The position numbers and the translations under genes were made by a program. Under the pieces are notes generated by a model. It saw only the letters and a program-made list of their open reading frames with translations. It ran no database searches and was not told the origin of the DNA. DNA of 33,201 nt from a virus (lineage: Duplodnaviria > Heunggongvirae > Uroviricota > Caudoviricetes), in IMG/VR virus record IMGVR_UViG_2574180227_000019; one strand, given 5' to 3'. Shown in pieces: positions 2,575 through 29,059 of the stretch; positions within the stretch are counted from its first letter, which is position 1; every line of letters starts with the position of its first letter.

Positions 2575-3650
2575 GTAATTTCTCCCACCGTCAGCAATTC
2601 AGCATCACCAGCCATAACCGATTTGAGGGGGCTGCGGACTTCAAAATCCTCAAGATTTTTCACACCTGCCACGGTTCGCCAGAATGAAGACGGAAGAACC
2701 AGGGCCCCCGGGCTTGATTCGTTATACAACAGGTCTGTCAGCGCCTGCTTTACAGCAGCCTGGTTCTCCGGCGTTTTCGGGACTATGCGGATTTCAAAAT
2801 CCACGGGCTTATTCGTTAACTTAAAGACCTTTACCGTTGGTCCCAGTGGCTGTCCGACGGGTTGCCCCGTTGCTGGATCATCATGGCTACGGATATATTC
2901 CGCCACGCGCTGTACGTCACCTTCGCCGGGGAAAATATCAGGGTTGTTATCCTGAACAAAGGTCACTCCAACGCTGCCAGCCTGAGGCCATTCCGGTTTA
3001 CACCATGCACGGGTTACCCCCGGAACTTCACGCGCCCAGCGCTCAAAATCATACTGCGTACCACCGGATGGTGGATTCTGTACACGAAACACCAGGCGGG
3101 ACAGCAATTCCGGGACTGACTCAACATCCGCACCTCCGGTGATCCCCGTACCGGTAATGGTGGCTGTCTGATTTATACCCGCCTGCGGGGTGACGAACGT
3201 CAGGGGGGTACCTGCTGGGGCATTACCGGAACGACCTGCATTTTCCGCTTCAACCTGCACGGTCAGGGTTCCGGCCTTTCCGGTAACAGACCCGGTGATG
3301 CGGTACACCTCACCATCACTGCGCTGAAGTTGTACCCCTTCGGTCACCCCGGCATCTGTCGTCAGCATCAACTGGACGGGACCATCGCCACGTGATGCCG
3401 GTTTACGGATCACACCCCAGAAGGAACAGTGTTTCAGCAGTTCAGCCTCGTCTGCTTCTGTCGGAATAATCTGCCTGGCAATCCAGGCAAGGTGCTCATG
3501 CTCCTGCGCAGACAACCCGGCCTGAGCATATGCAATGGCATTTAATGTTGTTTCACTCACACCCGGCTGGGAACCGGGAAGACGCTGGCTGATATCCTGC
3601 TGTGTCTGGGTGATCAGTTGCGCCAGTGGCAAGGGCTGATAAGGCATCAT
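2565..3650 (-). CDS. Baseplate J-like protein (Mu gp47-like)
   Basis: 361 aa ORF, ATGA overlap with the upstream gene; size and position match the baseplate J family in Mu-like tails. Confidence 0.7.
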   Translation of the reverse strand: MMPYQPLPLAQLITQTQQDISQRLPGSQPGVSETTLNAIAYAQAGLSAQEHEHLAWIARQIIPTEADEAELLKHCSFWGVIRKPASRGDGPVQLMLTTDAGVTEGVQLQRSDGEVYRITGSVTGKAGTLTVQVEAENAGRSGNAPAGTPLTFVTPQAGINQTATITGTGITGGADVESVPELLSRLVFRVQNPPSGGTQYDFERWAREVPGVTRAWCKPEWPQAGSVGVTFVQDNNPDIFPGEGDVQRVAEYIRSHDDPATGQPVGQPLGPTVKVFKLTNKPVDFEIRIVPKTPENQAAVKQALTDLLYNESSPGALVLPSSFWRTVAGVKNLEDFEVRSPLKSVMAGDAELLTVGEITWL

Positions 3651-7216: not shown

Positions 7217-9269
7217 AGTTACCTCCGTTCCAGACATCCACATCCAGCGAACTGCCGGAGGTTTCATTGATATCAATACTTCTTGCGCTCCAGCCATCCG
7301 GGGCAACCAGCTCCACACGGGCAGAAGCCTGTTCAGCGGCTTTTCCTCCGCTGTTATCGGTATCCCCCCGTAGTTTTTGCCAGGCTTCTGTCAGCCAGCC
7401 GCCGAGATAATTACCGAGATAACTTCCCACCGTTGAACCGATAGCCACGCCGACAGGTCCTGCCGCAGCTCCCAGCGCTCCACCGGCAATGCTGCCAGCA
7501 AGAGAGCCGACAGCCTCCCCCTTGTTGGTAGCACTGGCACTATCGTCCAGCAGGACAGGGGCGGCCATCGCCCCGGCCCAAAGGGCTCCACCGCCCAAAC
7601 GACCGGCAACCCCACCGGCACGGCGGAAAAGGCCGGAGAAACGCCCCATACCCAGCCGGTTACCGGCGGATGAAAGCAAGCCACCGGCACGGCTCATCAT
7701 GCGCCCGAAGAAGCCCTGAGGGGGTGAGGCTGGCGGCGTTGCCGGTACAGTAACAACCGACGTCACCGGGCGTCCGCGCCCCGGCCCGCGTCTGGTGCGT
7801 CCACGCTGACGTTTTCCTTCACCTCCGCTGATCACATCAGAAACGCCCCCCGCCATGGCACCGGCTGGCCAGTTCATGACATTTACGGGCTGAATGGCTG
7901 CGGGGTTAACCCCCGTCAGAAAATTCAGGAACCGACCGCCACGCCCCGGTATGGTTTCGGGAACGGTGGTCTGTGGTTTGCGGAAGGGGGAGGTCAGAAC
8001 AGAAGCGGTGGACATGCCCCAGCGAAGCGGTGTTGCACCAAGACGCAGCGCACTTCCACCAACAGCCCTGACCAGTTTCAGTGCCCGGGTGGCCAGATAC
8101 ATATACAGCAGATATTTCGCAGCTGTCTGTGCACCACGAGCGATACCGTCCAGCGTATCGCCATACCCTGCATCACGCAGCGCCTGAAGCGTTTCCCGTA
8201 CCTTCTGAATAGCCCGGTAAAAACCAGTTGCCGCATCACGGGCATACTCAAAGCCCTGATTCAGGGCACCCGCTGTCTGTGCCGCCAGTTTTTCCTGAAG
8301 ACCGCTGGACTTTGCCTCATCAGCATAATCCAGAAAGCCTTTAAGGCTGTTTTTAAGGCTGTCAAAAGGTCCTTTGGCCATGACGTCACGGGCAAAGTCA
8401 TCCCATACATCCCCCATCATGGCAGTCATGCCCGTCCAGGAGTTCATGGCATTTTTCTGTGCACCTTTTGCCTGTTCTGCCATGACCTGGAACAGGAGAC
8501 GAATGCTGTCCGGTCCCAGCTTACCTTTGCTACCCAGATCACGAAGTACTTTCTGATCAACTTTCAGTTTTTCAGCCAGCAACTGATAAACGTTGATACC
8601 GTAGCCCGTCAGAATACTGGCATCAGCCGCCTGAATTGCACCACGGGAATACATCTGTTTGAGCTGAAGGGATGCGCCCTGCGCGTCAGCAAGGGACCAG
8701 CCGTGATAGCCCCCCTGATCCTGAAGCATGGTGATAAAGTTACGTGCTTCCTTATCACTCATACCAAAACCACGGCTGGAAGCGTATTCCTGCATAACGC
8801 CAGCCAGCCCCCACGTGGTTTCTTTTGCATTCTGGACAGCCCACTTACGGACGTCTTCTGTTCTGGATGTATCACCATGATTGATGGCATTGAGACGAAG
8901 AATGTAATTCTCCATCTCTGATGCGGGACGAAGAAAAGCCTTGTTAAATCCGTACGCAGCCGCACCACCGGCCAGCATCCCGTAAAGGTTGCTGATACGT
9001 CCCAGCGTACCGGTAATACTTCCCTGAAGCCGGTCAAAATCAGAGGTGACTGAACGGATACTGCCACGGACTCCGGCAAGCATACGTTGCATACGGGTGC
9101 CAACAAGATCAGTTTCCTGACCGGCACGACGGGCTGCATTACCCAGACCACCCAGCCCCGACTGTCCGGAACGGGAAAATGCCCCCAGCTCCTGCGACCA
9201 CTGGCGAGATTTAGCGGAAATATTGCCGAGCAGATCGACTATCAGGGAGGCTTTCAGATTTTTTGCCAT
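7203..9269 (-). CDS. Tail tape measure protein
   Basis: 688 aa ORF downstream of tube and chaperone; Gly/Ala-rich C-terminal region; correct position in a contractile-tail module. Confidence 0.8.
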   Translation of the reverse strand: MAKNLKASLIVDLLGNISAKSRQWSQELGAFSRSGQSGLGGLGNAARRAGQETDLVGTRMQRMLAGVRGSIRSVTSDFDRLQGSITGTLGRISNLYGMLAGGAAAYGFNKAFLRPASEMENYILRLNAINHGDTSRTEDVRKWAVQNAKETTWGLAGVMQEYASSRGFGMSDKEARNFITMLQDQGGYHGWSLADAQGASLQLKQMYSRGAIQAADASILTGYGINVYQLLAEKLKVDQKVLRDLGSKGKLGPDSIRLLFQVMAEQAKGAQKNAMNSWTGMTAMMGDVWDDFARDVMAKGPFDSLKNSLKGFLDYADEAKSSGLQEKLAAQTAGALNQGFEYARDAATGFYRAIQKVRETLQALRDAGYGDTLDGIARGAQTAAKYLLYMYLATRALKLVRAVGGSALRLGATPLRWGMSTASVLTSPFRKPQTTVPETIPGRGGRFLNFLTGVNPAAIQPVNVMNWPAGAMAGGVSDVISGGEGKRQRGRTRRGPGRGRPVTSVVTVPATPPASPPQGFFGRMMSRAGGLLSSAGNRLGMGRFSGLFRRAGGVAGRLGGGALWAGAMAAPVLLDDSASATNKGEAVGSLAGSIAGGALGAAAGPVGVAIGSTVGSYLGNYLGGWLTEAWQKLRGDTDNSGGKAAEQASARVELVAPDGWSARSIDINETSGSSLDVDVWNGGNYVHW

Positions 9270-14385: not shown

Positions 14386-15509
14386 TATTGCATTTCCTCT
14401 TTCATTTTCAGGAATTCGGCTTCGGTTTTACCCAGAAGATGGGCGGCGGCGATATCTTCAGCCGACAGCGAGGCGGTGGCGGTCTTTTTATCCGGCACGG
14501 TCACGGTGTCGGTCTGAAGACCGGTCAGAGCCGCAACCGGCTGGCGGGCGTCAAGCTGCGCAGAAAGTGCTGCAACGCCAATCTGTTGTCCGAGTCCTTC
14601 CATGTATCCGCGTTCGCTTTTGAAAATGCGTCCTTCGGACTCGGCCTTATCCAGCAACTGCTCCAGCGTGGTGCTGCCGTGCTGTGCCGACAGCGCGACA
14701 TATTCGGTACGCAGGGCGTTATACGTCTCAACGGGCACGTATTTCGTCAGATCAATACTGCCGCCAGCCGGTGTGCCTTTTGCGGTTTCCAGCTCTGCCG
14801 ACAGACTGGCGACCTGTGTTTTCAGGTTGTCGTGTGCATCCGCACGGGGTTTGATCCCGGTGAGGGCAGACAGCGCCGCCGTGCCCAGCTCCGGCGTAAA
14901 TTCGTCACCGTCAGCCACGGTCAGACCGAGCGCCGTCAGCAACTGGCGTAATTGCTCATTCATGGAGGTATCCTTTAAAGGAGGGTTTAAGGCGTTATAA
15001 AGGTCATCCGCCGACAGCGCGGCGACAGGATTCATGCCGGTCAGACCGGGGTCACCGGTAATAGCCAGCATCCGAAGTTCGACAGGTTCGCCGGTGTTCT
15101 CGTCATAGCCAATCACCGGTGAAAACCAGGGGAATTCGTTATTACGCAGATGTTCAAGGGCCGGAGGGTTCCACTTCGGGCGCACCTCGAAGCCACGCTC
15201 TTCACTGAAGCGGAAGTTTTCCGGTGAAGCCGTCACAAAACCGGCAGCCGGTGCCTGATGCCCCTTAATCAGGGTCTGGTGGTTGTAGTCAATTTTTACC
15301 GGCTGATTGAGCGCCACAACCCGGGATACCATGCGCTCAACGGTCGCACGGTTAATCAGCCAGCCTTCAGCCGGTTTTTCCGGGCGACCGTCACGGGCCT
15401 TTACCCGACCGGCTGGCATGATCTGACACCAGTCACCGTCCCCGTCTGCGGACAGGCTGATGGCATTCAGAATGGCATAAGCAAGTTTGGGCGTGTTTTT
15501 CGTCTTCAT
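14385..15509 (-). CDS. Prohead protease / scaffold protein (Mu I-like)
   Basis: 374 aa ORF between G and T; N-terminus MKTKNTPKLAYAILNAISLSADGDGDWCQIMPAGRVKA... resembles Mu gpI as remembered. Confidence 0.75.
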   Translation of the reverse strand: MKTKNTPKLAYAILNAISLSADGDGDWCQIMPAGRVKARDGRPEKPAEGWLINRATVERMVSRVVALNQPVKIDYNHQTLIKGHQAPAAGFVTASPENFRFSEERGFEVRPKWNPPALEHLRNNEFPWFSPVIGYDENTGEPVELRMLAITGDPGLTGMNPVAALSADDLYNALNPPLKDTSMNEQLRQLLTALGLTVADGDEFTPELGTAALSALTGIKPRADAHDNLKTQVASLSAELETAKGTPAGGSIDLTKYVPVETYNALRTEYVALSAQHGSTTLEQLLDKAESEGRIFKSERGYMEGLGQQIGVAALSAQLDARQPVAALTGLQTDTVTVPDKKTATASLSAEDIAAAHLLGKTEAEFLKMKEEMQ

Positions 15510-15654
15510 TCCGGCAGCATAAGCCGGGAATTTTCAGGGCGGGTTTTGCGGGATTTCAGGAAGTGCTTTCAGGGGAAAAATACAAAGGCGCTTCACGCAG
15601 ATTTTAAAGCCCGTTAAATACAGGTTAGAAAATCACGACACGCGCCTGAAGGGG

Positions 15655-17607: not shown

Positions 17608-19189
17608 CCAGCATCCCCTTCATTTCCGCAGCAAACATGGCATCACTGAGCAGCGTCATCAGGCGGGAATCATCCATTTCACGATAAAGGGCAGGCAGGT
17701 CTGCCAGCGCATCCGCCAGCCCCCGCGTTCTGATGGCATCAATGACCGGCTCCAGTACCGGGTCGATGGCCTCCTGTAAGCGGCGGGCAGGCACCGCGTC
17801 CCCCATATCATCCAGTTCATCACGCGGCGTGCTTTTCGCTTCCGGCAGTCTGGCTGACAGCGCCGTCTGCTCTGTTTTTTCCTGTTTTTCCGGTGGTGTT
17901 TCCCTGTCGGTCTGAGCCGGTTCATTGCCACTCTGACGGACACGGAATATGGCTTCACCGGGCGTGGGCTGCGGAATACCCGTCTGCTCACGTATCCAGG
18001 GATCAGAAATATCCATCCCCGTACTGAGCTGCATCACCGCACTGGTGATTTTGGTGATATCCCCCGGTTCTTTTGTCTGGAAGCAGATACGTGGCAGACG
18101 GCGGATATCAATAGTGTGCGTGGTGTTCAGGGCGTACAGCGGATACACCAGATCGCGGTTCAGGGTTGCAGCCAGCTGTCGTAAATCAGAATCCCTGATT
18201 TCCCGGCGCACCTCGTTATGCACTTCACCCAGCGAGCGCGCGCCTTTGTCTCCGGCTTCCGTGGTCAGCGTGCCGCCGAGTATTGCTTTGGAGATGGAGC
18301 GCTCCCCCCACGAAATCATGGTTTCAAACGGATCGGCCTGACCGTTCGCGGCTGCCTGAAACTCCAGCGACATCCCGGCCGGGATGATCCCGCCTGTACG
18401 TCGCCCGATATCCATCACCGCCCGCATCAGGGCGCTTTTCTGCTCCGGTGTTGCCCCGGACGGGTATTTACCGACCTTCATCGGCAGGCCGTACACCTCC
18501 AGAAATTCAGCCAGATCGCGCACGGAATAGTTTTTGAAAATGAACGGCCAGATAAGCGTTCTGACAAGCCCTGTTGCGCCGCCGTAACCGGTGCGTGAAC
18601 GTGACTGATGCACTATCCAGCCAAAGGGCTGAAACGCCACCCCGGCATGGCTGCCGTCACGCAGCCGCAGTTCGCTCAAATCATCCGGGTTAAGGCAGAA
18701 ATGCCCGCTGTCACGCCAGCGGATGGCGCGGATGATGTGCATTTTACCGAGCATCCCGTGCTCAATCTCCATGCAGGAATAGCCTTTCAGGATGGCATCG
18801 GTGGCATCAAACAGCATGGCATCAAACCAGTCGGCGGAATGCAGGTATTCGTCGAGCATTTCCGCGTCCTTTTTCTCATTCGCGCTGGCGTTCGGGGGCG
18901 GCTCAATACTCCAGGGCACCCCCTGAATGGCAAGACGTCGCTTGCCCAGCTCTGCAAAAAGATGGGTATCCTTTTCTTCAATGTCAGCGGCCAGATCGGA
19001 CTGGGCAATCAGATCGCCACGTTCAGCCCCGCGAAGGCACTGTGCCGCCCGGTTCGGGGTGATACCCGAGGCCGGATGTTCAATATAACGGCTGGCAATC
19101 TGCGGAATATCCAGCACGGCACTCTGCATCTCCGGGTCAAAGGAGAAAGGTTTTCCGTCAAGATCAATTATGCATCCCACTACCAGCAC
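17591..19189 (-). CDS. Portal protein (Mu gp29-like)
   Basis: 532 aa ORF between terminase large subunit and F; GTG start in the track, true start uncertain. Confidence 0.75.
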   Translation of the reverse strand: MLVVGCIIDLDGKPFSFDPEMQSAVLDIPQIASRYIEHPASGITPNRAAQCLRGAERGDLIAQSDLAADIEEKDTHLFAELGKRRLAIQGVPWSIEPPPNASANEKKDAEMLDEYLHSADWFDAMLFDATDAILKGYSCMEIEHGMLGKMHIIRAIRWRDSGHFCLNPDDLSELRLRDGSHAGVAFQPFGWIVHQSRSRTGYGGATGLVRTLIWPFIFKNYSVRDLAEFLEVYGLPMKVGKYPSGATPEQKSALMRAVMDIGRRTGGIIPAGMSLEFQAAANGQADPFETMISWGERSISKAILGGTLTTEAGDKGARSLGEVHNEVRREIRDSDLRQLAATLNRDLVYPLYALNTTHTIDIRRLPRICFQTKEPGDITKITSAVMQLSTGMDISDPWIREQTGIPQPTPGEAIFRVRQSGNEPAQTDRETPPEKQEKTEQTALSARLPEAKSTPRDELDDMGDAVPARRLQEAIDPVLEPVIDAIRTRGLADALADLPALYREMDDSRLMTLLSDAMFAAEMKGMLDDTGD

Positions 19190-20844
19190 CCCCGATCAAA
19201 TTCATGATATGCCTCATCGTCATCACGATAACCGCCCTCCATGGCCCGCGACCGCTCCGGCAGCGCCTGGCAGGCTGATTCATCCAGGATAAAGCCCTCC
19301 ATGTATGACGCCCGGTTTGCCATACAGAGCGCCACGGCAAAATCACCATGGCGGCGGGCGTTCACAGCCGTTGCGTTCTGGTCCTTCGTACGCCCCTTGT
19401 CGATTTGCGGGATACCGTTCACCACCTTCACATGGCGCAAATCATCAAGCGTGGTCTGATGGCGGGCGACGAGGATATTCTGATCCTCAAACTCGGCCTT
19501 CAGTTTTGGCATCCACTCGCCGTACCACTTCGGCGATAACATCACGCAGTCGATGATGTCCGGGCCAAAGGCCAGCAGCGCGGCTTCGGCCAGATAGCCG
19601 CCGTTACCGGTGGCGTCGAACGCCGCACCGACCAGCGCCGGAACGCGGGTCAGGATGTACATCATCACCTGCTCCTGCTGGGCATACGGCAGGTTGCGCA
19701 GCTCCACGCGAAACACCTCGCGTTTTGCCAGGGATTCAGTGATTTCCAGCAGCACAAAACAGGACAGGTCTCCGGTGCGGGCAAAGTCTTCCCCGAAGCT
19801 GAATCGGGAACGGGGATTTAACGCCTCTAAAAGCGGTTTTAAATGTTCTTCACACCAGGTTAAAACCTCCGATTCACGCAGCCATGCGGCACGGCTGATG
19901 AAGTCGTCCGGGGCTTCAAACGTCAGAATCGGGATGTCGCGGATCATCGCCATTTCAATAAGCGCGTGAGGAATATAGGCACCGCCGGATTTTTTCGGGA
20001 TACAGCCGTATTCCTCGTCGGCATCCTCACGGGTCGGGGCGTTTTTGTAGAGATCATCACGCCACTTCTGCTCGCTTTCCGGTGACCATTCGCGGCCGGT
20101 GACATAACAGATACGACGGTACAGCCCGTCCGCAATGGCATCATCCAGGGTAATGCGGTGGACGCTGTAATCCTTGCGCCCTTCGCGGGCTTCCTGAATG
20201 TACTGATTAAACAGATTATCGACGCCGTTATGCGTGGAGATAATACGCACGCGCGCGCCCCACATGGTAAGCGCCATTGCCGCCTTGAGAAGCTCATCCA
20301 GTGACTCGTGGAACGCGGCTTCATCAATCACCACATCCCCCTGAAGGCCGCGCAGGTTTGACGGACGGGAAGACAGTGCCTGAATTTTGAATCCACTGTT
20401 CGGAAAGCGGATCATGTAGGTCAGAATTTCTTCTTTTTTATCCCGATCCCAGAAGGTCTGCTCATACACATCAGCATCTGCCAGCTGGTTAAAGGCACGG
20501 GAGAACAGTGCACAGGCAGAAATATATTCCAGCGCCATCTCCTGCTTTGACCCCACATAAAACACATTGCGGCCACCGCGCCGCTTCGGTTTTGCAGCGG
20601 TAATGACGTTACGCCCGGCTTCCGCCCAGGTAAGCCCGGTGCGGCGGGATTTTTCCGCGATGCAGACCTCGCTTTCATCCTCAAACCAGCGGGCCTGATA
20701 ATCCAGAAATACCGGCATATCACCGGGCAAATCAAGGCTGTCCGGCACATCCACGCCCAGTAGGGCTTTTTCACCGGCCAGATCAATTTTGCGGGTGGAG
20801 ACGGTATTCGTCAGTAAGGGGGAGAGTTCTTCGGCGTTATTCAT
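19180..20844 (-). CDS. Terminase large subunit (Mu gp28-like)
   Basis: 554 aa ORF, ATG at 20842-20844; position immediately after the small-subunit gene. Confidence 0.8.
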   Translation of the reverse strand: MNNAEELSPLLTNTVSTRKIDLAGEKALLGVDVPDSLDLPGDMPVFLDYQARWFEDESEVCIAEKSRRTGLTWAEAGRNVITAAKPKRRGGRNVFYVGSKQEMALEYISACALFSRAFNQLADADVYEQTFWDRDKKEEILTYMIRFPNSGFKIQALSSRPSNLRGLQGDVVIDEAAFHESLDELLKAAMALTMWGARVRIISTHNGVDNLFNQYIQEAREGRKDYSVHRITLDDAIADGLYRRICYVTGREWSPESEQKWRDDLYKNAPTREDADEEYGCIPKKSGGAYIPHALIEMAMIRDIPILTFEAPDDFISRAAWLRESEVLTWCEEHLKPLLEALNPRSRFSFGEDFARTGDLSCFVLLEITESLAKREVFRVELRNLPYAQQEQVMMYILTRVPALVGAAFDATGNGGYLAEAALLAFGPDIIDCVMLSPKWYGEWMPKLKAEFEDQNILVARHQTTLDDLRHVKVVNGIPQIDKGRTKDQNATAVNARRHGDFAVALCMANRASYMEGFILDESACQALPERSRAMEGGYRDDDEAYHEFDRGCW

Positions 20845-21718: not shown

Positions 21719-22022
21719 TCGTTTTTTTCCTTACCGCCTGCTCCAGCAGCAGTTCGTTCTGATAGGAGACAGAGCGGAGCGTGGCGTTCGTGGTTTTCAG
21801 TTCACCCCGCAGGGTCACGATTTCCACATTCAGACGGTTGACCTCAGCTTCTGTCGGCAGTGACGACAGGCGGGTTTCCACCTTCTCAACGCGGTCGGAG
21901 AGTTTTTCAAAGGCCTCGCGGGGGACAAACGTTTTGCGCATCAGCGCCATGAATATCCCGCCAGCGGTTGCCGTCGCCGAAAGGATCGGCACAACATAAT
22001 CTTTAACGATGCTGACCCACAT
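21711..22022 (-). CDS. Small membrane protein (Mu gp25-like; candidate lysis accessory / releasin-like)
   Basis: 103 aa, N-terminal hydrophobic helix (VVPILSATATAGGIFMALM) then coiled coil; GGAGG Shine-Dalgarno; adjacent to the lysis genes. Confidence 0.4.
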   Translation of the reverse strand: MWVSIVKDYVVPILSATATAGGIFMALMRKTFVPREAFEKLSDRVEKVETRLSSLPTEAEVNRLNVEIVTLRGELKTTNATLRSVSYQNELLLEQAVRKKTNE

Positions 22023-22230
22023 GACGGGCCTCCATGATGTTCTGGCAGTTCACACAACGGATGGCATCCGGCACAGCAACAAGACGTGCGGCGGGGATCT
22101 CTCCGCCACAGTCCGCGCAGACACGTCTGCCCGGAGCATCCATTGCCCGGCGCTTACGTGTCAGCCGGTTACAAAGGGCGCGTTCTGATCCCCGCTCCAT
22201 CACAGCCTGAGCACGATCTGAATCATCCAT
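22003..22230 (-). CDS. TraR/DksA-family C4 zinc-finger protein
   Basis: 75 aa with CADCGGEI...x17...CVNCQ (CxxC-x17-CxxC) and AAGGA Shine-Dalgarno. Confidence 0.6.
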   Translation of the reverse strand: MDDSDRAQAVMERGSERALCNRLTRKRRAMDAPGRRVCADCGGEIPAARLVAVPDAIRCVNCQNIMEARHVGQHR

Positions 22231-22516: not shown

Positions 22517-22793
22517 CAGGAACAGGGGCAGAGGCCGCAGGCACCGCTGCCAGCGACCGGCGGACAACGCTCTGCTGTCCCTCGCTGTGCTGAATGTTCT
22601 GTTGTTTTTCATTCGTGGCCGCCTCACTGATTTGTGAAATGAGTTGCAGGGTGTGCTGCTGATTTGCCAGCACCTGACGCGCCTCATCCCGCTCACGCAC
22701 AAGCACCTGATTATTGTCTTCAAGGCGCTGCGTCTTCTGGTGCATTCCCCATATCGCGGCAACCAGTACAGCGATAATCCCCAGCGCCGCCAT
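22443..22793 (-). CDS. i-spanin (Rz-like inner-membrane protein)
   Basis: From the ATG at 22791-22793: MAALGIIAVLVAAIWG (transmembrane helix) followed by a Gln/Glu/Arg-rich predicted coiled coil. Start uncertain; in-frame ATG also at 22943 and TTG at 22964. Confidence 0.45.
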   Translation of the reverse strand: MAALGIIAVLVAAIWGMHQKTQRLEDNNQVLVRERDEARQVLANQQHTLQLISQISEAATNEKQQNIQHSEGQQSVVRRSLAAVPAASAPVPDDVADRVRRAVCEIRACEAGADPR

Positions 22794-22905
22794 GCACGCC
22801 CCGGCAATCAGGGCCGGTAAGGCATTATTCACCGCAGCCACAAGACACCCCGTAACAGCAGTACCGCACACAGCAGCGCTATCATGAGCGGTCGCCAGAA
22901 GCGGT

Positions 22906-23406
22906 TCAGACTTTCGGCAAGTCGTAGCGACATAACCATTCATCCGCCGAACGGCGGGCCTCAAGGCCGGGGAGTTTCACCCCCTTTGAATAAATCCAGC
23001 GGATATACTGCTTACAGGACGCGGGCATCTGCCCGGCATTGATCAGGCGCAGAAGCGTGGAGTTGCGGAAGTTCGTTTCACCGGCCCAGAAGATCCACGA
23101 AGCCAGCGCCACAGTCTGACCACGGGTAAGCGGCACCTGAACACGCCGATCAATGGCCGCAAAGGCCCATTTCATGTCCTTTTCCAGTAGTTCCAGGCAT
23201 TCTTCATCCGTCAGGGTCATACCCGGTTTCACATCCGGGCCGGTATGGCCGTAACAGATGGTGGGTGTACCGGTGGGATCGATATACGTGGAGTTTTCTT
23301 TCCCTTCCCAGTAACCGGTGTAATGCGTGGCAATCGTGAACGTCCCGGCACCGGCCAGAACAAGGGCAATCAGCTTTTTACGCAGTGGTGCGGGGAGTTT
23401 TGGCAT
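22906..23406 (-). CDS. Endolysin, phage lysozyme with N-terminal signal-anchor-release (SAR)-like domain
   Basis: N-terminal KKLIALVLAGAGTFTIA hydrophobic segment followed by YWEGKENSTYIDPTGTPTICYGHT, i.e. the E-x8-D-x5-T catalytic arrangement of T4-type and SAR lysozymes. Confidence 0.75.
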   Translation of the reverse strand: MPKLPAPLRKKLIALVLAGAGTFTIATHYTGYWEGKENSTYIDPTGTPTICYGHTGPDVKPGMTLTDEECLELLEKDMKWAFAAIDRRVQVPLTRGQTVALASWIFWAGETNFRNSTLLRLINAGQMPASCKQYIRWIYSKGVKLPGLEARRSADEWLCRYDLPKV

Positions 23407-23407
23407 T

Positions 23408-23445
23408 GTTACGCTGTCTCATGATGTTCTCTGAGTCAGCGTAAC
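23408..23445. promoter_or_regulatory. Perfect 9 bp inverted repeat ending 1 nt before the endolysin start codon
   Basis: gttacgctg (23408-23416) and cagcgtaac (23437-23445), 20 bp spacer, in the 71 bp gap between the Mor/C-family gene and the endolysin. Confidence 0.3.
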
Positions 23446-23477
23446 GGTGAAGGAAAGGCGGCAGGCTTTGCGGAATA

Positions 23478-23903
23478 TCAGAAAAGTGGCGGTTGCGTTC
23501 TTGCCAGATGCAGACGGCGCTGTTCACGTATGACGGTATAAATCTGGGTTTCTGACATCCGGTAATGGCGGCGAAGGGATTCAATTTTCTCGCCCCGGTC
23601 CCAGCGCGAAAATATCTCATTGTTTCGCAGCTCGGCAAAGAGAGATTCCCCGACCGGCAGGTAATAACCCCGTCCGCCCATATAGGCTGCCTGAGCCGCA
23701 GCCACCTTGCGTGCCAGTTTACCGGCCAGTACCGGCTCAATCCCCTGACGCTGAAGTTCTGCGCCGGTGACTTCAACCAGTTCTGACAGGGTCCGCGGCC
23801 AGTTCTTTTTGAGAACATCATCAGGGATGTCATCAAGGCGGTCGATAAGGGCGTGCAGTTGCTCACTGTCACCACCAAACATGCTCATCTGAGTTTCTGC
23901 CAT
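23478..23903 (-). CDS. Mor/C-family transcriptional activator (middle/late gene activator)
   Basis: 141 aa; C-terminal ...YYLPVGESLFAELRNNEIFSRWDRGEKIESLRRHYRMSETQIYTVIREQRR... resembles the Mu Mor/C family as remembered; GGAGG Shine-Dalgarno; lies just downstream of an intrinsic terminator and upstream of the endolysin. Confidence 0.7.
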   Translation of the reverse strand: MAETQMSMFGGDSEQLHALIDRLDDIPDDVLKKNWPRTLSELVEVTGAELQRQGIEPVLAGKLARKVAAAQAAYMGGRGYYLPVGESLFAELRNNEIFSRWDRGEKIESLRRHYRMSETQIYTVIREQRRLHLARTQPPLF

Positions 23904-23944
23904 ATCAGCCTCCGGTTCTCGCGTTCCCGGTAAGTTTAAAATAA

Positions 23945-23968
23945 AAATCCCGCGTTGTGGCGGGATTT
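23945..23968 (-). terminator. Rho-independent terminator between GemA and the Mor/C-family gene
   Basis: On the minus-strand transcript: aaaucccgc-cacaac-gcgggauuu (9 bp stem, 6 nt loop) followed by uuauuuuaaa. Confidence 0.5.
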
Positions 23969-23972
23969 GGGG

Positions 23973-24482
23973 TTAACGGGGAAGTGATTTTTCATACTGC
24001 CTGCAAACGGCGTCATACCCCATCAGCGTGCGTTCGGGCATTCCCATCGCGGCCAGCATTTTGCGGCGGTGCCATCGCTTGAGACGCTCCAGCACATCTG
24101 AGGCCAGGGCGGGGTGTTGCTCCAGCCACTGCCAGTTTGCCACACCTTCGCCGCCGTTCTGCGCGGCCGTCTGCGATTTCACCCAGCGGTTAAGAGCGGT
24201 TTCCGCACCATCAGAGATAAAGCCCTGCCGGTGCATCACCTTCCAGATGGCGCGAATTTTAGCGGTCACCGTACCCGGTTTTAAGGCCCGGTTAACCGGG
24301 TTCTGACGCACTTTAAAACCGCGTTTTTTGAAAACATCCAGCACGCGGGACAACTCATCCGGTGACATATCCCGGCAGCTGGTTTTGCCGGTGGCTGCCA
24401 GCAGCACGAATGTATAAGTCTCATCATCCAGGGCAAGCTCGCGCTTTGCCACATGAATGGCGGATATCAGTTTTCCTCTCAT
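23973..24482 (-). CDS. GemA-like protein (Mu gp16 family)
   Basis: 169 aa ORF directly upstream of the Mor/C gene; sequence and position consistent with Mu GemA as remembered. Confidence 0.6.
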   Translation of the reverse strand: MRGKLISAIHVAKRELALDDETYTFVLLAATGKTSCRDMSPDELSRVLDVFKKRGFKVRQNPVNRALKPGTVTAKIRAIWKVMHRQGFISDGAETALNRWVKSQTAAQNGGEGVANWQWLEQHPALASDVLERLKRWHRRKMLAAMGMPERTLMGYDAVCRQYEKSLPR

Positions 24483-24775
24483 ACCGTATTTACCTTTTTA
24501 CGGACATGGAAAGCCTTTTCTGCCTCATCCCACCGGGCATGGTGTGTTGGCGGAATAATCATTATGTGCCAGCCATCTCTGGTTGTTATCCGGCAGAAAA
24601 ATTCACCGCTATATAACACAATGGCCTGCTGAATGAGCGCATCAGCCGCCCGTTCAACCGGATGTCTTTTATCAAAAAAGCAGATGATTTTTCGACATAA
24701 CCACCGGGTAATAACAAATGCGCCGAAAAAGGATGTGATATATAAGCACCAGAACAACAGAGAACTATTGTCCAT
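24479..24775 (-). CDS. Small membrane protein, unknown function
   Basis: 98 aa, strong AAGGAG Shine-Dalgarno, N-terminal hydrophobic helix (LLFWCLYITSFFGAFVI); ATGA-coupled to GemA. Confidence 0.5.
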   Translation of the reverse strand: MDNSSLLFWCLYITSFFGAFVITRWLCRKIICFFDKRHPVERAADALIQQAIVLYSGEFFCRITTRDGWHIMIIPPTHHARWDEAEKAFHVRKKVNTV

Positions 24776-24955
24776 TATCTTTCTCCTTATTCACTCTTCT
24801 GCGGCATTCGGCACAGTCATCAGGGCTTTCAAATGTATCCGGCTCGCGATTATGAGCCAGATATAACCACCGTCCACATATACTGATATTTTCGCCTGTT
24901 TTAAAAAAAATGATGCTTCCTGGCCATTAGTGGCCGCGCCCATCCAGCGGGTAGA

Positions 24956-25672: not shown

Positions 25673-25980
25673 TCCGGTAAAGCTGAAATATGGCACCAGT
25701 GCGTCACCTGTCCGTCCTCATCTTCAAGGCAGGCTCCGGTTTCTTCATCAACAAAAAAGCCTTCATACCCCATATGGCCGATGCGCAGCTCCTGACGGTG
25801 ACCATACTGAACAATCAGCACGACAGCCTCCATATCAGGTGGGAAAGCATCATTCAGTGAATGCCAGGGATAACCGCGTAAATCCCCGAAATAAACACCG
25901 GTCAGCGTTCCGCCACAGAGCGGCATTCCGGCGGCACACACAAGAGGTTCATCTGATTCAACAAATAAGGTCGTTATCAT
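25669..25980 (-). CDS. Hypothetical early protein (possibly DUF551-like)
   Basis: 103 aa, ATGA-coupled to the upstream gene; the DUF551 resemblance is a weak impression from memory. Confidence 0.4.
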   Translation of the reverse strand: MITTLFVESDEPLVCAAGMPLCGGTLTGVYFGDLRGYPWHSLNDAFPPDMEAVVLIVQYGHRQELRIGHMGYEGFFVDEETGACLEDEDGQVTHWCHISALPE

Positions 25981-26528
25981 GGCGTTAACTCCCGTAATAC
26001 AGCGTCCTCGGCAGTCCGGCGACGGTAATAAACTGCGTGAGCAGAATGTTCAGATATTCCAAACTTTTCGCCAATTTCCCGGAATGACAGACGGCGTGGG
26101 TAATCGGAATCACGCAGCGCACGTATAAGACGTACATCATAATCAGATATGCGCGTGCCGGGGCGTAACTCTCCGCACTTTGTTAATCCAGCACCAATCA
26201 TTCCTGCCCGACATCTGACAGAATCTTTATTACGTCCGAGATATTCTCCCATTTGCTGGCAGGTCATTGTTCTGGCATTTTTTCGAATAAACTTATCTTC
26301 ATCAGGTGTAAATCTTGGGTGTTTATATTTCAGTAACTCCGGGTATGAACTGCGCAATACACCAGTCCGGTTATATACAGCCCAGACAGTTCTTTTTATT
26401 CTGGCAGCAATATCCTTAACCGGGGTGGATGAATAAAGCGCAATCAGCAGCGCATCTTCTTCAGGTGTCCACGGACGGACATGAGCGGGGGCGCGACCTT
26501 TTAGTCCCATGGGTTGTAATTTCATCAT
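25977..26528 (-). CDS. Putative DNA-binding protein with tandem helix-turn-helix repeats (Myb/SANT-like and sigma region-4-like)
   Basis: 183 aa, GGGGGTGA Shine-Dalgarno. Two repeats of the pattern (W/F)TPEED...x20-25 (RPWTPEEDALLIALY...IAARIKRTVWAVYNR and PRFTPDEDKFIRKNARTMTCQQMGEYLGRN), then ...LSFREIGEKFGISEHSAHAVYYRR. Confidence 0.45.
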   Translation of the reverse strand: MMKLQPMGLKGRAPAHVRPWTPEEDALLIALYSSTPVKDIAARIKRTVWAVYNRTGVLRSSYPELLKYKHPRFTPDEDKFIRKNARTMTCQQMGEYLGRNKDSVRCRAGMIGAGLTKCGELRPGTRISDYDVRLIRALRDSDYPRRLSFREIGEKFGISEHSAHAVYYRRRTAEDAVLRELTP

Positions 26529-26531
26529 GCA

Positions 26532-27047
26532 TCACCCCCTGACTCGCTTTTCAGCAGCATAAAACTCATCAGACAGTATTTCGGTCATTTTCTGTTTTGC
26601 GGGTTTTACGCCGCACTGAAGGTAAATCACATCGTCAACGCAGAACCACTTCACAGGGCCAAACAGGATTGCCGAGAAATCAATACCCAGCCAGAACAAC
26701 AGCGCATCGGTTCTGGCATACGTGACGGGCGAATATTCACGCCACAGACTGTACAGTTCATCAGAGGCAACACGCAGGGTTTTAGGGATACGTGATGTGC
26801 GCGGTGTGCAGCTCCAGCCATTCGACGCAGTCGGTTTTCGCCATAAGTCGCGATGAAAAGGATATTTGTCCTCCGTAAAACGCAGTCCCTTAAAGCAAAA
26901 TCCACTGATACCGGATACAAATACCGACCGGCACGCAACATTCAGCACGGCCTCAAGGCGTTTTGCCTCATCCTTAACTTTCTGGCAGTCCTGCTGGTAT
27001 TTTTGCCACGCAGCCAGCGCGGAAGGGTTTGATGTTTTAAAGAACAT
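26532..27047 (-). CDS. Hypothetical early protein
   Basis: 171 aa, GGAGGTGG Shine-Dalgarno, tightly coupled to its neighbours. Confidence 0.45.
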   Translation of the reverse strand: MFFKTSNPSALAAWQKYQQDCQKVKDEAKRLEAVLNVACRSVFVSGISGFCFKGLRFTEDKYPFHRDLWRKPTASNGWSCTPRTSRIPKTLRVASDELYSLWREYSPVTYARTDALLFWLGIDFSAILFGPVKWFCVDDVIYLQCGVKPAKQKMTEILSDEFYAAEKRVRG

Positions 27048-27580
27048 TACGCCACCTCCGCAGATATCCCGGCAGGCGCAGCCGTCCGGTCAACAATCAG
27101 GTAACGCAGAACATGTTCGGTGATATTCCAGCCGCTTAAACCGCAGATAATGACACCCAGGCGAATGTCGATATACGCCATCACAAACTGGGGCACGCCT
27201 TCTTTCATGGCCTGCTCATCAACTTCAGCCACCACATAAACGGTTTCACAGGTCAGAACGCCCTGAGCAAATTCCCACGCCATCGACGGAATATCATGCC
27301 CTTCAATCCACGGCAGGGATTTTCTGAAGCTGCACCACTGAACATCATCAGCCGCAGACTCCTGGCTGCATTTGCGACGAACCGGCTGCACCGGGCGGGG
27401 ACGCGGAATATCATAAAAACCGTTACGGTCCGTCAGCACGCCTGCATCAACCGCATCACGCAGAAAATAAACCATGGAGGATAGCGGCATATTCATTTTT
27501 TCTGCCAGAGAACGACTGGTCAGACGGCCAGAAAAACGCAGCCAGTTTTTAACCCCTTCAAGCACTTTTGCATCAATCAT
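27047..27580 (-). CDS. Hypothetical early protein with N-terminal winged-helix-like segment
   Basis: 177 aa, GGAGGA Shine-Dalgarno; N-terminal ...TSRSLAEKMNMPLSSMVYFLRDAVDAGVL... looks HTH-like. Confidence 0.45.
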   Translation of the reverse strand: MIDAKVLEGVKNWLRFSGRLTSRSLAEKMNMPLSSMVYFLRDAVDAGVLTDRNGFYDIPRPRPVQPVRRKCSQESAADDVQWCSFRKSLPWIEGHDIPSMAWEFAQGVLTCETVYVVAEVDEQAMKEGVPQFVMAYIDIRLGVIICGLSGWNITEHVLRYLIVDRTAAPAGISAEVA

Positions 27581-28765: not shown

Positions 28766-29059
28766 TTATTGCAGTGTGCCTGATGCTTTATGCACGCGGT
28801 GGTGTTTAATGATGGCATCCGCTCCAAAATCCTGTGCAGATGCCTGAAATTCCGCTGAGAGGAAATGAATAATTGCAGGACTGTGATACTGGAGAATACT
28901 TGCATAAACATCACAGAGTGACGTCGGGCTGTTCTCCGTATCACGTTCTGTTTTCACATCCACACCAATCTTTTCATGCACTTCAACACAGTCATTGCCT
29001 GCCAGCTTTTCGTCATGCGAAACATTCTCAAATTCAAAAATAACGCGTACTTTGCTCAT
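28766..29059 (-). CDS. Small early protein, paralogue B of a tandem pair
   Basis: Start re-chosen at the ATG at 29057-29059 (MSKVRVIFEFENVSHDEK...); the N-terminus parallels the adjacent gene. Confidence 0.45.
   Translation of the reverse strand: MSKVRVIFEFENVSHDEKLAGNDCVEVHEKIGVDVKTERDTENSPTSLCDVYASILQYHSPAIIHFLSAEFQASAQDFGADAIIKHHRVHKASGTLQ

What the first reader, a model, noticed from the sequence alone, without database searches (positions are those of the whole stretch)
23408..23968. Single Mor/C-family activator flanked by a terminator upstream and an inverted repeat abutting the endolysin start
A clear intrinsic terminator (23945..23968) separates GemA from a single Mor/C-family gene, which is followed after only 71 bp by the endolysin. 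Mu, as I recall, has separate Mor (early) and C (middle) activators with genes between them, so this looks like a compressed cascade or a Mor located elsewhere. A perfect 9 bp inverted repeat ends 1 nt before the endolysin AUG and could occlude its initiation region or act as an operator.
Basis: partly seen in the sequence, partly recalled or inferred. Interest (0 to 1): 0.4.

Follow-up and report, generated by a model that had tools for sequence, protein, structure and literature searches.

The report
Late-promoter hairpin gating endolysin translation
In this Mu-like E. coli prophage, a single C-type activator gene sits between an ordinary terminator and the endolysin gene, and the inverted repeat before the endolysin most likely blocks its translation on read-through transcripts only, as in phage T4 lysozyme.

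Summary
All genes lie on the minus strand: GemA (24482-23973), a terminator-type hairpin with a U-run (23968-23945), one Mor/C-family gene (23903-23478), a 71-nt spacer, then a SAR endolysin (23406-22906). The repeat is larger than reported: 14-nt arms with one mismatch, -18.6 kcal/mol.

No second Mor/C gene exists in the window or in the complete prophage. The protein is C-like (39% identity to Mu C, 27% to Mor). One activator is the rule among Mu relatives; only Mu-proper and one close relative carry two.

New result: the spacer is a late promoter. Its 22-nt box recurs with identical spacing upstream of the protease gene I. Its -10 (TACGCT) lies inside the 5' arm of the repeat. A late transcript would therefore start at the 3' edge of that arm and lack it. 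Transcripts reading through from the activator gene would fold and bury the endolysin ribosome-binding region. No terminator intervenes there.

The same design, with different sequences, appears at PI in six lineages. It also appears at Mu's Plys, PI and Pm. Transcription starts in this prophage are inferred, not mapped. How the activator gene itself is switched on remains unresolved.

The parts
23973..24482 (-). gemA (gp16 family), last gene before the terminator
   Evidence: Pfam GemA 1.2e-29; 43-47% identical to GemA of Mu and relatives
23945..23968 (-). Terminator-type hairpin AAATCCCGC-CACAAC-GCGGGATTT, followed by a U-run (23944-23935)
   Evidence: Pattern scan; -12.9 kcal/mol, z -4.9. 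The stem core TCCCGC/GCGGGA is kept in four lineages while the loops vary
23933..23938 (-). TAAACT, a conserved -10-like hexamer directly after the U-run; putative promoter (Pc) of the activator gene, with no -35
   Evidence: T-run plus TAAACT / GTATACT is retained even in loci that lost the hairpin or its 5' arm (L033, L008, L052, L082). Function is inferred
23909..23913 (-). GGAGG Shine-Dalgarno of the activator gene, not masked by structure
   Evidence: Sequence; fold; upstream/TIR duplex test not significant (p 0.067)
23478..23903 (-). Single Mor/C-family activator, C-like
   Evidence: Pfam Mor 2.8e-32; 39%/105 bits to Mu C against 27%/52 bits to Mu Mor; groups with the C clade in the NJ tree
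23460..23481 (-). Late-promoter box of Plys, CTGATATTCCGCAAAGCCTGCC; it contains the activator gene's TGA stop
   Evidence: The same box (IUPAC pattern) occurs only here and at PI; 0.01 matches expected. Box conserved and spacer variable in 82%-identical relatives
23438..23443 (-). TACGCT, predicted -10 hexamer of Plys, inside the 5' arm of the repeat
   Evidence: Same 16-nt distance from the box as TATGCT at PI. Only TAnnnT hexamer in the spacer (read). TG/CA of the box is symmetric about -43.5, as for Mu C sites
23431..23432 (-). Predicted start of the late lys transcript (6th-7th nt after the -10)
   Evidence: Inferred from the -10 position and from the start at nt 7 after the hexamer at Mu Plys. 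That start is back-calculated from the published site centre at -43.5. Not mapped here
23432..23445 (-). 5' arm of the inverted repeat (GTTACGCTGACTCA): -10 hexamer plus discriminator
   Evidence: fold
23408..23421 (-). 3' arm of the inverted repeat (TGAGACAGCGTAAC): covers -15 to -2 of the lys initiation region
   Evidence: Mean unpaired probability of the initiation region is 0.27 on read-through RNA and 0.53 on late RNA
22906..23406 (-). SAR-type endolysin (lys)
   Evidence: Pfam Phage_lysozyme 6.3e-37; hydrophobic N-terminus like Mu gp22
15511..15559 (-). Second late promoter (PI): box 15559-15538, -10 TATGCT 15521-15516, small hairpin CCGGC/GCCGG 15527-15511 ending 1 nt before the ATG of protease gene I (15509)
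   Evidence: the gene I start is supported by alignment to Mu I

Best explanation
The region is the regulatory hub of an Sp18-type Mu-like prophage that runs on one C-type activator. (1) An intrinsic terminator after gemA ends most early transcription. (2) The activator gene follows, with an open, strong ribosome-binding site and a conserved -35-less promoter-like element that abuts the terminator. It is probably primed by terminator read-through and then boosted from this promoter. (3) The activator turns on late promoters that carry a shared 22-nt box. One of them, Plys, fills the 71-nt spacer and overlaps the activator's stop codon, so there is no room for a terminator. (4) The -10 and discriminator of Plys form the 5' strand of an -18.6 kcal/mol hairpin. 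Its 3' strand is the endolysin ribosome-binding region. Transcripts entering from the activator gene fold and are poorly translated. Transcripts started at Plys begin at the 3' edge of the 5' arm, cannot fold, and are translated. Endolysin synthesis in this apparently holin-less lysis system is thereby tied to late-promoter firing. Shown: the anatomy, the folds, the box and its spacing, and the comparative pattern. Inferred: transcription starts, termination, activator binding and the translational effect.
For: Gene identities and the single activator. C-like identity. Terminator. Late box found only at Plys and PI, with identical 16-nt spacing to TAyGCT. Both promoters show a conserved box, a variable spacer and a conserved -10 in diverged relatives. 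No terminator-like site lies between the activator gene and lys in the window. L010 has one there, and the Mu record annotates one. Hairpin: -18.6 kcal/mol, z -6.4. RNA starting at 23432/23431 folds at only -2 to -6 kcal/mol. In 10 sequence variants, 12 of 45 unpaired spacer columns vary and 0 of 26 paired columns vary (p 0.002). Generality: at PI in six lineages the -10/+1 segment pairs with the gene I initiation region using different sequences. The p-values are 0.007, 0.033, 0.001, 0.013, 0.004 and 0.010. Mu Plys gives p about 0.03-0.05. In a control of 90 other gene starts, 1.5% of 270 tests reach p<0.05. The two best control hits are Mu E18, the first gene after Pm, and mom, which on my recollection has a Com-regulated hairpin. 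Precedent: T4 gene e (PMC3014915). Rationale: Mu lysis lacks holin control (PMC9239132).
Against: No transcription start has been mapped for this prophage; the start is inferred from a -10 match and from homology. MAFFT aligns the window box with Mu's C box, and this places the box 7 nt further from the start region than in Mu, so the promoter geometry is not certain. The window's AUG itself is not paired, and its Shine-Dalgarno (GAGA) is weak. At Plys of the Kluyvera and L010 lineages the equivalent pairing is not significant (p 0.1-0.3). Conservation of the arms could come from promoter and ribosome-site constraints alone, since no compensatory change occurs within the window's own lineage. 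The lineages in the PI test are related, so the combined p-value overstates independence. How the activator gene's promoter is activated is unresolved.
Confidence: 0.55

Rival explanations
1. The hairpin is part of the normal late lys mRNA because the start lies upstream of it. It would act as a constant translational damper or 5' stabiliser, or need a factor to open it, as Com does for Mu mom (from my own knowledge).
For: The hairpin is strong and buries the ribosome-binding region. A small zinc-finger protein of the TraR/DksA type is encoded in the same lysis cassette. The MAFFT alignment leaves the promoter geometry ambiguous.
Against: TACGCT is the only TAnnnT hexamer in the spacer. It sits at the same distance from the box as the PI hexamer. 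At Mu Plys and PI, whose published starts I located indirectly from the -43.5 site centre, the 5' arms end at or span +1. The zinc-finger gene lies downstream in the same operon, so it could not open the hairpin first.
Confidence: 0.2
2. The inverted repeat is a DNA operator for a dimeric repressor that covers the -10 to +25 region of the late promoter.
For: Dyad symmetry overlaps a promoter core.
Against: There is no other copy of the half-site in the 33-kb window. The arm centres are 24 bp apart. Equivalent repeats in other lineages differ in sequence, and their loops range from 7 to about 22 nt while staying complementary. That pattern fits nucleic-acid pairing, not a protein site.
Confidence: 0.07
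3. The upstream 'terminator' palindrome is mainly a binding site for the activator itself, giving autoregulation. It would parallel Mu, where the Mor dyad in Pm coincides with the t9.2 hairpin.
For: In the Mu record the terminator (9179-9200) lies inside Pm. The stem core TCCCGC/GCGGGA is nearly invariant across four lineages while the loops vary. The arm AAATCCCGC is identical to the core of the PI box. In the Kluyvera and L010 lineages, AATCCCGC/ATTCCCGC sits at -39 to -31, within 1 nt of its position in Mu Plys. The promoter has no -35 and has a T-run spacer like Mu Plys and Pmom.
Against: The hairpin centre lies at about -30 from the conserved -10, not at -43.5. In register, the window's sequence does not match its own late boxes; the match needs a 5-nt shift. 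Sequence upstream of the hairpin is not conserved, and some loci lack the hairpin yet keep the -10. Covariation is weak (41 of 500 shuffles reach the observed score).
Confidence: 0.25
4. The features carry no regulatory function: the repeat and hairpins are accidents of promoter and ribosome-site sequence.
For: There is no compensatory change within the window's own lineage.
Against: z -6.4 and 0 of 200 shuffles fold as well. The design recurs at PI in six lineages with different sequences, against a control rate of 1.5%.
Confidence: 0.03

Closest known systems
Phage T4 gene e (lysozyme) translational control; also T4 soc, 49 and I-TevI
   Same: A hairpin sequesters the initiation region of the lysis enzyme on transcripts that read in from upstream. 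The late promoter lies in the DNA that encodes the 5' strand, so late transcripts lack that strand and are translated (PMC3014915).
   Different: Here the embedded promoter is a sigma-70, activator-dependent, -35-less promoter rather than a gp55 late promoter (TATAAATA). The window's AUG is left unpaired. The effect on translation is untested here. The PI version places the -10 in the hairpin loop and predicts a leaderless mRNA.
Phage Mu Mor -> Pm -> C -> Plys/PI/PP/Pmom cascade
   Same: It shares the gemA neighbourhood and a C-like activator directly upstream of a SAR endolysin. It also shares -35-less late promoters, with an imperfect dyad box symmetric about -43.5, and a terminator hairpin at the end of the early operon.
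   Different: There is no Mor and there are no E18-gp20 genes. The terminator follows gemA rather than mor. The hairpin centre lies at about -30 from the next -10, not -43.5. No terminator separates the activator gene from lys. The late box sequence differs (CTGAwATyCCGCAAA against ccATAAyCCC).
Single-activator Mu-like phages (SuMu, Mannheimia 3927AP2/phiMhaMu2; loci L011-L013, L076-L084)
   Same: One Mor/C-family gene, and in the published cases lys lies directly downstream (PMC4553209).
   Different: In the distant loci gemA abuts or overlaps the activator gene with no terminator, so the activator is an early gene there. In the window it is insulated from the early operon.
IS10/Tn10 'fold-back inhibition' of read-through transcripts (recalled from memory, not checked here)
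   Same: Translation of a dangerous gene is blocked only on transcripts that enter from outside, by pairing of upstream sequence with the ribosome-binding site.
   Different: The element and purpose differ. It is cited only as an analogy.

Membership tests
[quoted passage not shown] | Match to the family profile above the curated cut-off | tested here: met
   111.3 bits against a cut-off of 24.9, E 2.8e-32, profile covered 2-107 of 107
[quoted passage not shown] | Invariant linker residues between the dimerisation and HTH domains (C: G70 G71 Y75 P77 G79), and a size of about 100-150 aa | tested here: met
   G76 G77 Y81 P83 G85 are invariant in the alignment with Mu C and Mor; the residue list comes from PMC2582627; the protein is 141 aa
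[quoted passage not shown] | Binds an imperfect dyad centred at -43.5 and activates a -35-less promoter | not testable with these tools
   Only candidate boxes were found
C-type (late) rather than Mor-type (middle) activator | Closer in sequence to Mu C than to Mu Mor | tested here: met
   39%/105 bits against 27%/52 bits. NJ distances are 0.60 against 0.76, and the protein is sister to the C clade (no bootstrap)
C-type (late) rather than Mor-type (middle) activator | Gene lies immediately upstream of lys, with a late promoter between them | tested here: met
   71-nt spacer holding the box plus -10
Intrinsic (Rho-independent) terminator | G+C-rich stem-loop directly followed by a U-run | tested here: met
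   9-bp stem, 5 G-C pairs, 6-nt loop, tail UUAUUUUAAA; -12.9 kcal/mol
Intrinsic (Rho-independent) terminator | Stops transcription in vivo or in vitro | not testable with these tools
   No transcript data are available
Mu Pm/t9.2 arrangement (terminator hairpin doubles as the activator dyad at -43.5) | Hairpin centre about 43.5 bp upstream of the start of the next promoter | tested here: not met
   The centre lies at about -30 from the conserved TAAACT/TATACT hexamer in all four lineages
T4 gene e-type promoter-gated masking of the translation initiation region | Stable hairpin that includes the Shine-Dalgarno region and/or AUG of the gene | tested here: met
   -18.6 kcal/mol; the 3' arm covers -15 to -2; the AUG itself is unpaired
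T4 gene e-type promoter-gated masking of the translation initiation region | Late promoter lies in the 5' strand, so late transcripts lack it | tested here: inconclusive
   The -10 TACGCT lies in the 5' arm, judged by box spacing and homology. The start is not mapped, and the alignment ambiguity remains
T4 gene e-type promoter-gated masking of the translation initiation region | Upstream transcription reads into the gene | tested here: met
   No terminator-like site lies between 23477 and 23407, and the stop codon is inside the box. Actual read-through is inferred
T4 gene e-type promoter-gated masking of the translation initiation region | Read-through transcripts are poorly translated and late transcripts are well translated | not testable with these tools
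   Only predicted accessibility is available: 0.27 against 0.53

The most novel reading that the evidence does not exclude
Across Mu-like phages, including Mu itself at Pm, Plys and PI, every activator-dependent promoter that directly precedes a gene is built into the 5' strand, or the loop, of a hairpin that masks that gene's ribosome-binding region. Translation of the first gene of each regulated operon would then be licensed by promoter choice. In the Sp18 and L148 lineages the PI transcript would even be leaderless. This would be a general, apparently undescribed post-transcriptional layer in a paradigm phage family.
Probability: 0.4. Interest if true: 0.6.

Novelty: new variant of a known kind. 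Interest (0 to 1): 0.45.

Why it matters
Mu-type lysis has no holin clock (PMC9239132), so the time of lysis depends on when endolysin and releasin are made. A hairpin that lets only late-promoter transcripts be translated would explain one puzzle. This phage can place its endolysin 71 nt behind an earlier-expressed gene, with no terminator, and still not kill the host early. If the same rule holds at Mu's own Pm, Plys and PI, it adds an overlooked control layer to a textbook regulatory cascade. The result also corrects an expectation: the two-activator Mor/C cascade of Mu is the exception among its relatives, not the norm. In practice, expression constructs and prophage-induction models for Sp18-like elements in EHEC should not assume that read-through transcription yields endolysin.

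Tried and rejected
(1) I searched for a second Mor/C gene by tblastn on the window, Pfam on 20 ORFs and RefSeq annotation of the whole prophage. None was found. The weak hit in ORF 26532-27047 (E 0.14) is a homologue of Mu gp12 (54% identity), not a Mor.

(2) Rfam on 22700-24700 at E<=1 gave nothing.

(3) I looked for other copies of the repeat half-site as an operator test. There are none beyond chance.

(4) I looked for a third promoter with the late box, allowing up to 7 mismatches plus a TAnnnT hexamer. None was found, so the tail-operon promoter remains unidentified.

(5) I tested covariation in the upstream hairpin. Only one compensatory pair and two G-U pairs appear, which is not significant.

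(6) I tested whether the activator-gene promoter is a standard late promoter of the same phage. In register it does not match; the match needs a 5-nt shift. Autoactivation is therefore kept only as a hypothesis.

(7) I tested whether the Plys pairing is conserved in the Kluyvera/Erwinia and L010-type lineages. It is not significant there.

(8) The search for homologous proteins returned only relatives at 64% identity or more, which was no use for a wide tree. The genome-contig scan gave only 8 loci.

(9) The original Mu promoter-mapping papers (PMC209851, PMC210775) are not held. Mu start sites were therefore back-calculated from the published site centre at -43.5.

(10) I fetched the JKHS016 prophage for its PI region, but that prophage is rearranged there.

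Full report
**What the window is.** The window is a Mu-like prophage read on the minus strand. It runs from transposase A (cut at 33201) and B, through the early region, Gam, GemA and the lysis genes, to the head and tail genes. The 800 bases around the finding occur at >=99% identity in 202 RefSeq records of complete E. coli genomes (O157:H7, O26, O111, O145 and others). They occur at 80-90% identity in 30 more. They are also annotated as an "inserted Mu-like phage" inside two Stx phage records. The element therefore appears to be the Sp18 type of O157 Sakai. I did not compare it with the Sakai sequence directly. Sp18 was judged intact and not mitomycin-inducible (PMC2669165).

**Checking the observation.**
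- GemA lies at 24482-23973, a Mor-family gene at 23903-23478, and a lysozyme with a hydrophobic (SAR-like) N-terminus at 23406-22906.
- The spacer between the Mor-family gene and the lysozyme is 71 nt.
- The site at 23968-23945 has a 9-bp stem, a 6-nt loop and a U-rich tail. It folds at -12.9 kcal/mol, like Mu's t9.2 hairpin at -11.7.
- The repeat next to the endolysin start is larger than reported. It has 14-nt arms (23432-23445 and 23408-23421) with one mismatch and a 10-nt loop. It folds at -18.6 kcal/mol with z -6.4.

**One activator, and it is C-like.**
- tblastn of the protein against the window finds nothing else.
- Pfam on twenty surrounding ORFs finds no second Mor domain.
- The RefSeq annotation of the complete prophage in strain SJ7 lists a single Mor-family CDS between the repressor/ner end and the tail.
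- The protein is 39% identical (105 bits) to Mu C and 27% (52 bits) to Mu Mor.
- It keeps the family's invariant GG..Y.P.G linker (residues from PMC2582627).
- In a neighbour-joining tree it is sister to the C clade, while Mor is the outlying branch (no bootstrap).

**The arrangement is common.** I scanned one genome per species and IMG/VR and ran a tblastn census. Two family members occur only in Mu-proper (C 98-99% identical) and in one close relative (L054/L055). All of the following groups have one:
- the window's lineage;
- its 83-88% variants;
- a Kluyvera/Erwinia group (C 62-67% identical);
- an L010-type group (C 73-74%, lys about 80%);
- several distant groups.

A published comparison had already remarked that lys directly follows mor, and C is missing, in Mannheimia phages and SuMu (PMC4553209). 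So "single Mor/C" is real but ordinary, and "Mor elsewhere" is refuted. In the distant groups gemA abuts the activator gene with no terminator. In the window's group and its nearer relatives a hairpin intervenes.

**The upstream hairpin.** By form it is an intrinsic terminator at the end of the early operon. Comparison adds several points.
- The stem core TCCCGC/GCGGGA is nearly invariant across four lineages, while the loops differ freely.
- The U-run is followed at once by a conserved -10-like hexamer: TAAACT here, GTATACT elsewhere.
- The T-run and this hexamer persist in loci that have lost the hairpin or its 5' arm (L033, L008, L052, L082).
- In strain M3 the whole element travels with the activator gene, although gp16 is no longer adjacent.

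I therefore read the hexamer as the -10 of the activator gene's own promoter. It lacks a -35 and has a T-run spacer, as Mu Plys and Pmom do.

What activates this promoter is open. In Mu the Mor dyad of Pm coincides with the t9.2 hairpin. Here, however, the hairpin centre is at about -30, not -43.5. The arm AAATCCCGC equals the core of the PI box, but the match to the window's own late boxes needs a 5-nt shift. Covariation is weak.

The activator gene has a strong, unmasked GGAGG. This fits priming by terminator read-through, perhaps followed by autoactivation. That step is inference.

**The spacer is a late promoter.** A 22-nt box, CTGAwATyCCGCAAArCCyGCC, occurs exactly twice in the window, against 0.01 expected. 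One copy is at 23481-23460; the other, at 15559-15538, lies upstream of the protease/scaffold gene I. In both, a TAyGCT hexamer follows after exactly 16 nt.

In relatives about 82% identical, both promoters show the same pattern: a conserved box, a variable spacer, and a conserved hexamer. With these hexamers as -10, the TG/CA pairs of the box are symmetric about -43.5. That is the published centre of Mu C and Mor sites.

TACGCT (23443-23438) is the only TAnnnT hexamer in the spacer, and it lies inside the 5' arm of the repeat. At Mu Plys the start is the 7th nt after the hexamer; I back-calculated this from the -43.5 centre. The equivalent position here is 23432/23431, the last base of the 5' arm or the base after it.

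One caution applies. MAFFT prefers to align the window's box with Mu's C box. That places the box 7 nt further from the start region than in Mu, so the geometry is inferred, not proven.

**Consequence for the repeat.**
- The activator's TGA stop lies inside the box, and no terminator-like site lies between the activator gene and lys. L010 has one there, and the Mu record annotates one.
- RNA entering from the activator gene therefore contains both arms and folds. The 3' arm covers positions -15 to -2 of the lys initiation region.
- RNA started at Plys lacks the 5' arm and folds at only -2 to -6 kcal/mol.
- Among ten sequence variants of the spacer, 12 of 45 unpaired columns vary. These include the mismatch position and a loop base. 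None of the 26 paired columns varies (p 0.002). Promoter and ribosome-site constraints confound this test.

This is the logic described for T4 lysozyme gene e. There the late promoters lie in the DNA encoding the 5' strand of a hairpin that masks the initiation region on early read-through transcripts (PMC3014915). Mu-type lysis has no holin control (PMC9239132), which gives a reason to block premature endolysin synthesis.

**Generality.** At Plys the pairing is strong only in the window's lineage, which lacks the terminator. It is modest in Mu (GCCAUCA/UGAUGGC, p about 0.03-0.05) and not significant in the Kluyvera and L010 groups.

At PI, six diverged lineages all pair the -10/+1 segment with the gene I initiation region, using different sequences and different spacings:

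| Lineage | Pairing at PI | p |
|---|---|---|
| Window | CCGGC[TTATGCT]GCCGG-A-ATG | 0.007 |
| L148 | TCCCCC[TGACAAT]GGGGGA-ATG | 0.033 |
| Kluyvera group (L149) | AUGGUCCG / CGGACCAU | 0.001 |
| L010 group (L150) | AUGGCCU / AGGCCAU | 0.013 |
| L173 | AUGGCC / GGCCAU | 0.004 |
| Mu | CUGCUCA / UGAGCAG | 0.010 |

The combined p-value is about 3e-8, but this is overstated because the lineages are related.

As a control, I applied the same test to 90 other gene starts of the window and Mu, at three upstream offsets each. It gives p<0.05 in 1.5% of the 270 tests. The two best control hits are Mu E18, the first gene after Pm, and mom. Mom's initiation region is, on my recollection, held in a Com-regulated hairpin. 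The changing sequence and arm spacing argue for nucleic-acid pairing rather than a protein operator. The repeat's half-site also has no other copy in the window.

**Verdict.** The single-activator layout and the terminator are ordinary for Mu relatives. The repeat is real and strongly non-random. It is best explained as a promoter-gated mask on endolysin translation. This is a known kind of mechanism (T4 gene e), and I found no description of it for Mu-like phages in the papers I read. The main gaps are unmapped transcription starts, untested translation effects, and the unknown trigger of the activator gene's promoter.

Noticed in passing
window 15509-15527 (minus strand): The predicted -10 of the late promoter PI (TATGCT, 15521-15516) ends 6 nt before the ATG of protease gene I, with no Shine-Dalgarno. 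The late transcript should therefore start at or next to the A of the ATG, giving a leaderless mRNA. L148, whose protein I is 56% identical, has the same layout with different bases (TCCCCC[TGACAAT]GGGGGA-ATG).
   Followed up: partly
L005 (phage Mu) 9210-9250, 10445-10490, 18020-18060: In Mu itself the -10/+1 regions of Pm, Plys and PI are complementary to the initiation regions of E18, lys and I. The pairings are UGAUGA/UCAUCA, GCCAUCA/UGAUGGC and CUGCUCA/UGAGCAG. E18 came up as the top hit of a control set (p 0.0025).
   Followed up: partly
window, 12 sites (e.g. 27403-27411 -, 28847-28855 +, 19102-19110 -, 20644-20652 -): The 9-mer AWATYCCGC, the core of the late boxes and of the terminator arms, occurs 12 times against 1.6 expected. 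The longer TGAWATYCCGC occurs 4 times, against my rough estimate of 0.06. The extra copies lie inside genes on both strands and have no -10 at promoter distance. Their meaning is unknown.
   Followed up: partly
window 22003-22230 (minus strand): A 75-aa TraR/DksA-type C4 zinc-finger protein (Pfam 5.4e-12) is encoded inside the lysis cassette, between the spanin genes and the DUF2730 releasin homologue. Mu has no homologue at this position; the Idiomarina-type loci L011 and L012 do.
   Followed up: no
window 25977-26528 (minus strand): An early-region ORF of 183 aa has weak HTH/Myb-like hits and is annotated by RefSeq as a SANT/Myb-like DNA-binding protein. It has no counterpart in Mu or in the related loci examined. 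It is a candidate for an unrelated early regulator.
   Followed up: no
L009 / L049 (Erwinia tracheiphila) about 3030-3100: The endolysin start region carries a tandem expansion of AAAAGCCCC (about six copies) just after the ATG. It either lengthens or disrupts the N-terminal SAR segment.
   Followed up: no
L004 (E. coli M3) 2100-2820; L033; L085 (E. coli JKHS016): The early/activator junction is a recombination hot spot. M3 has an opposite-strand gene between gp16 and the activator gene. L033 has lost the 5' arm of the terminator hairpin. In JKHS016 the tail genes lie on the opposite strand about 7 kb beyond lys, where gene I is expected, so that prophage is rearranged.
   Followed up: partly
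window 24776-24955: A 180-nt gap in the early region holds only a 50-aa ORF (24791-24943), with an A8/T8 run. It was not examined.
   Followed up: no
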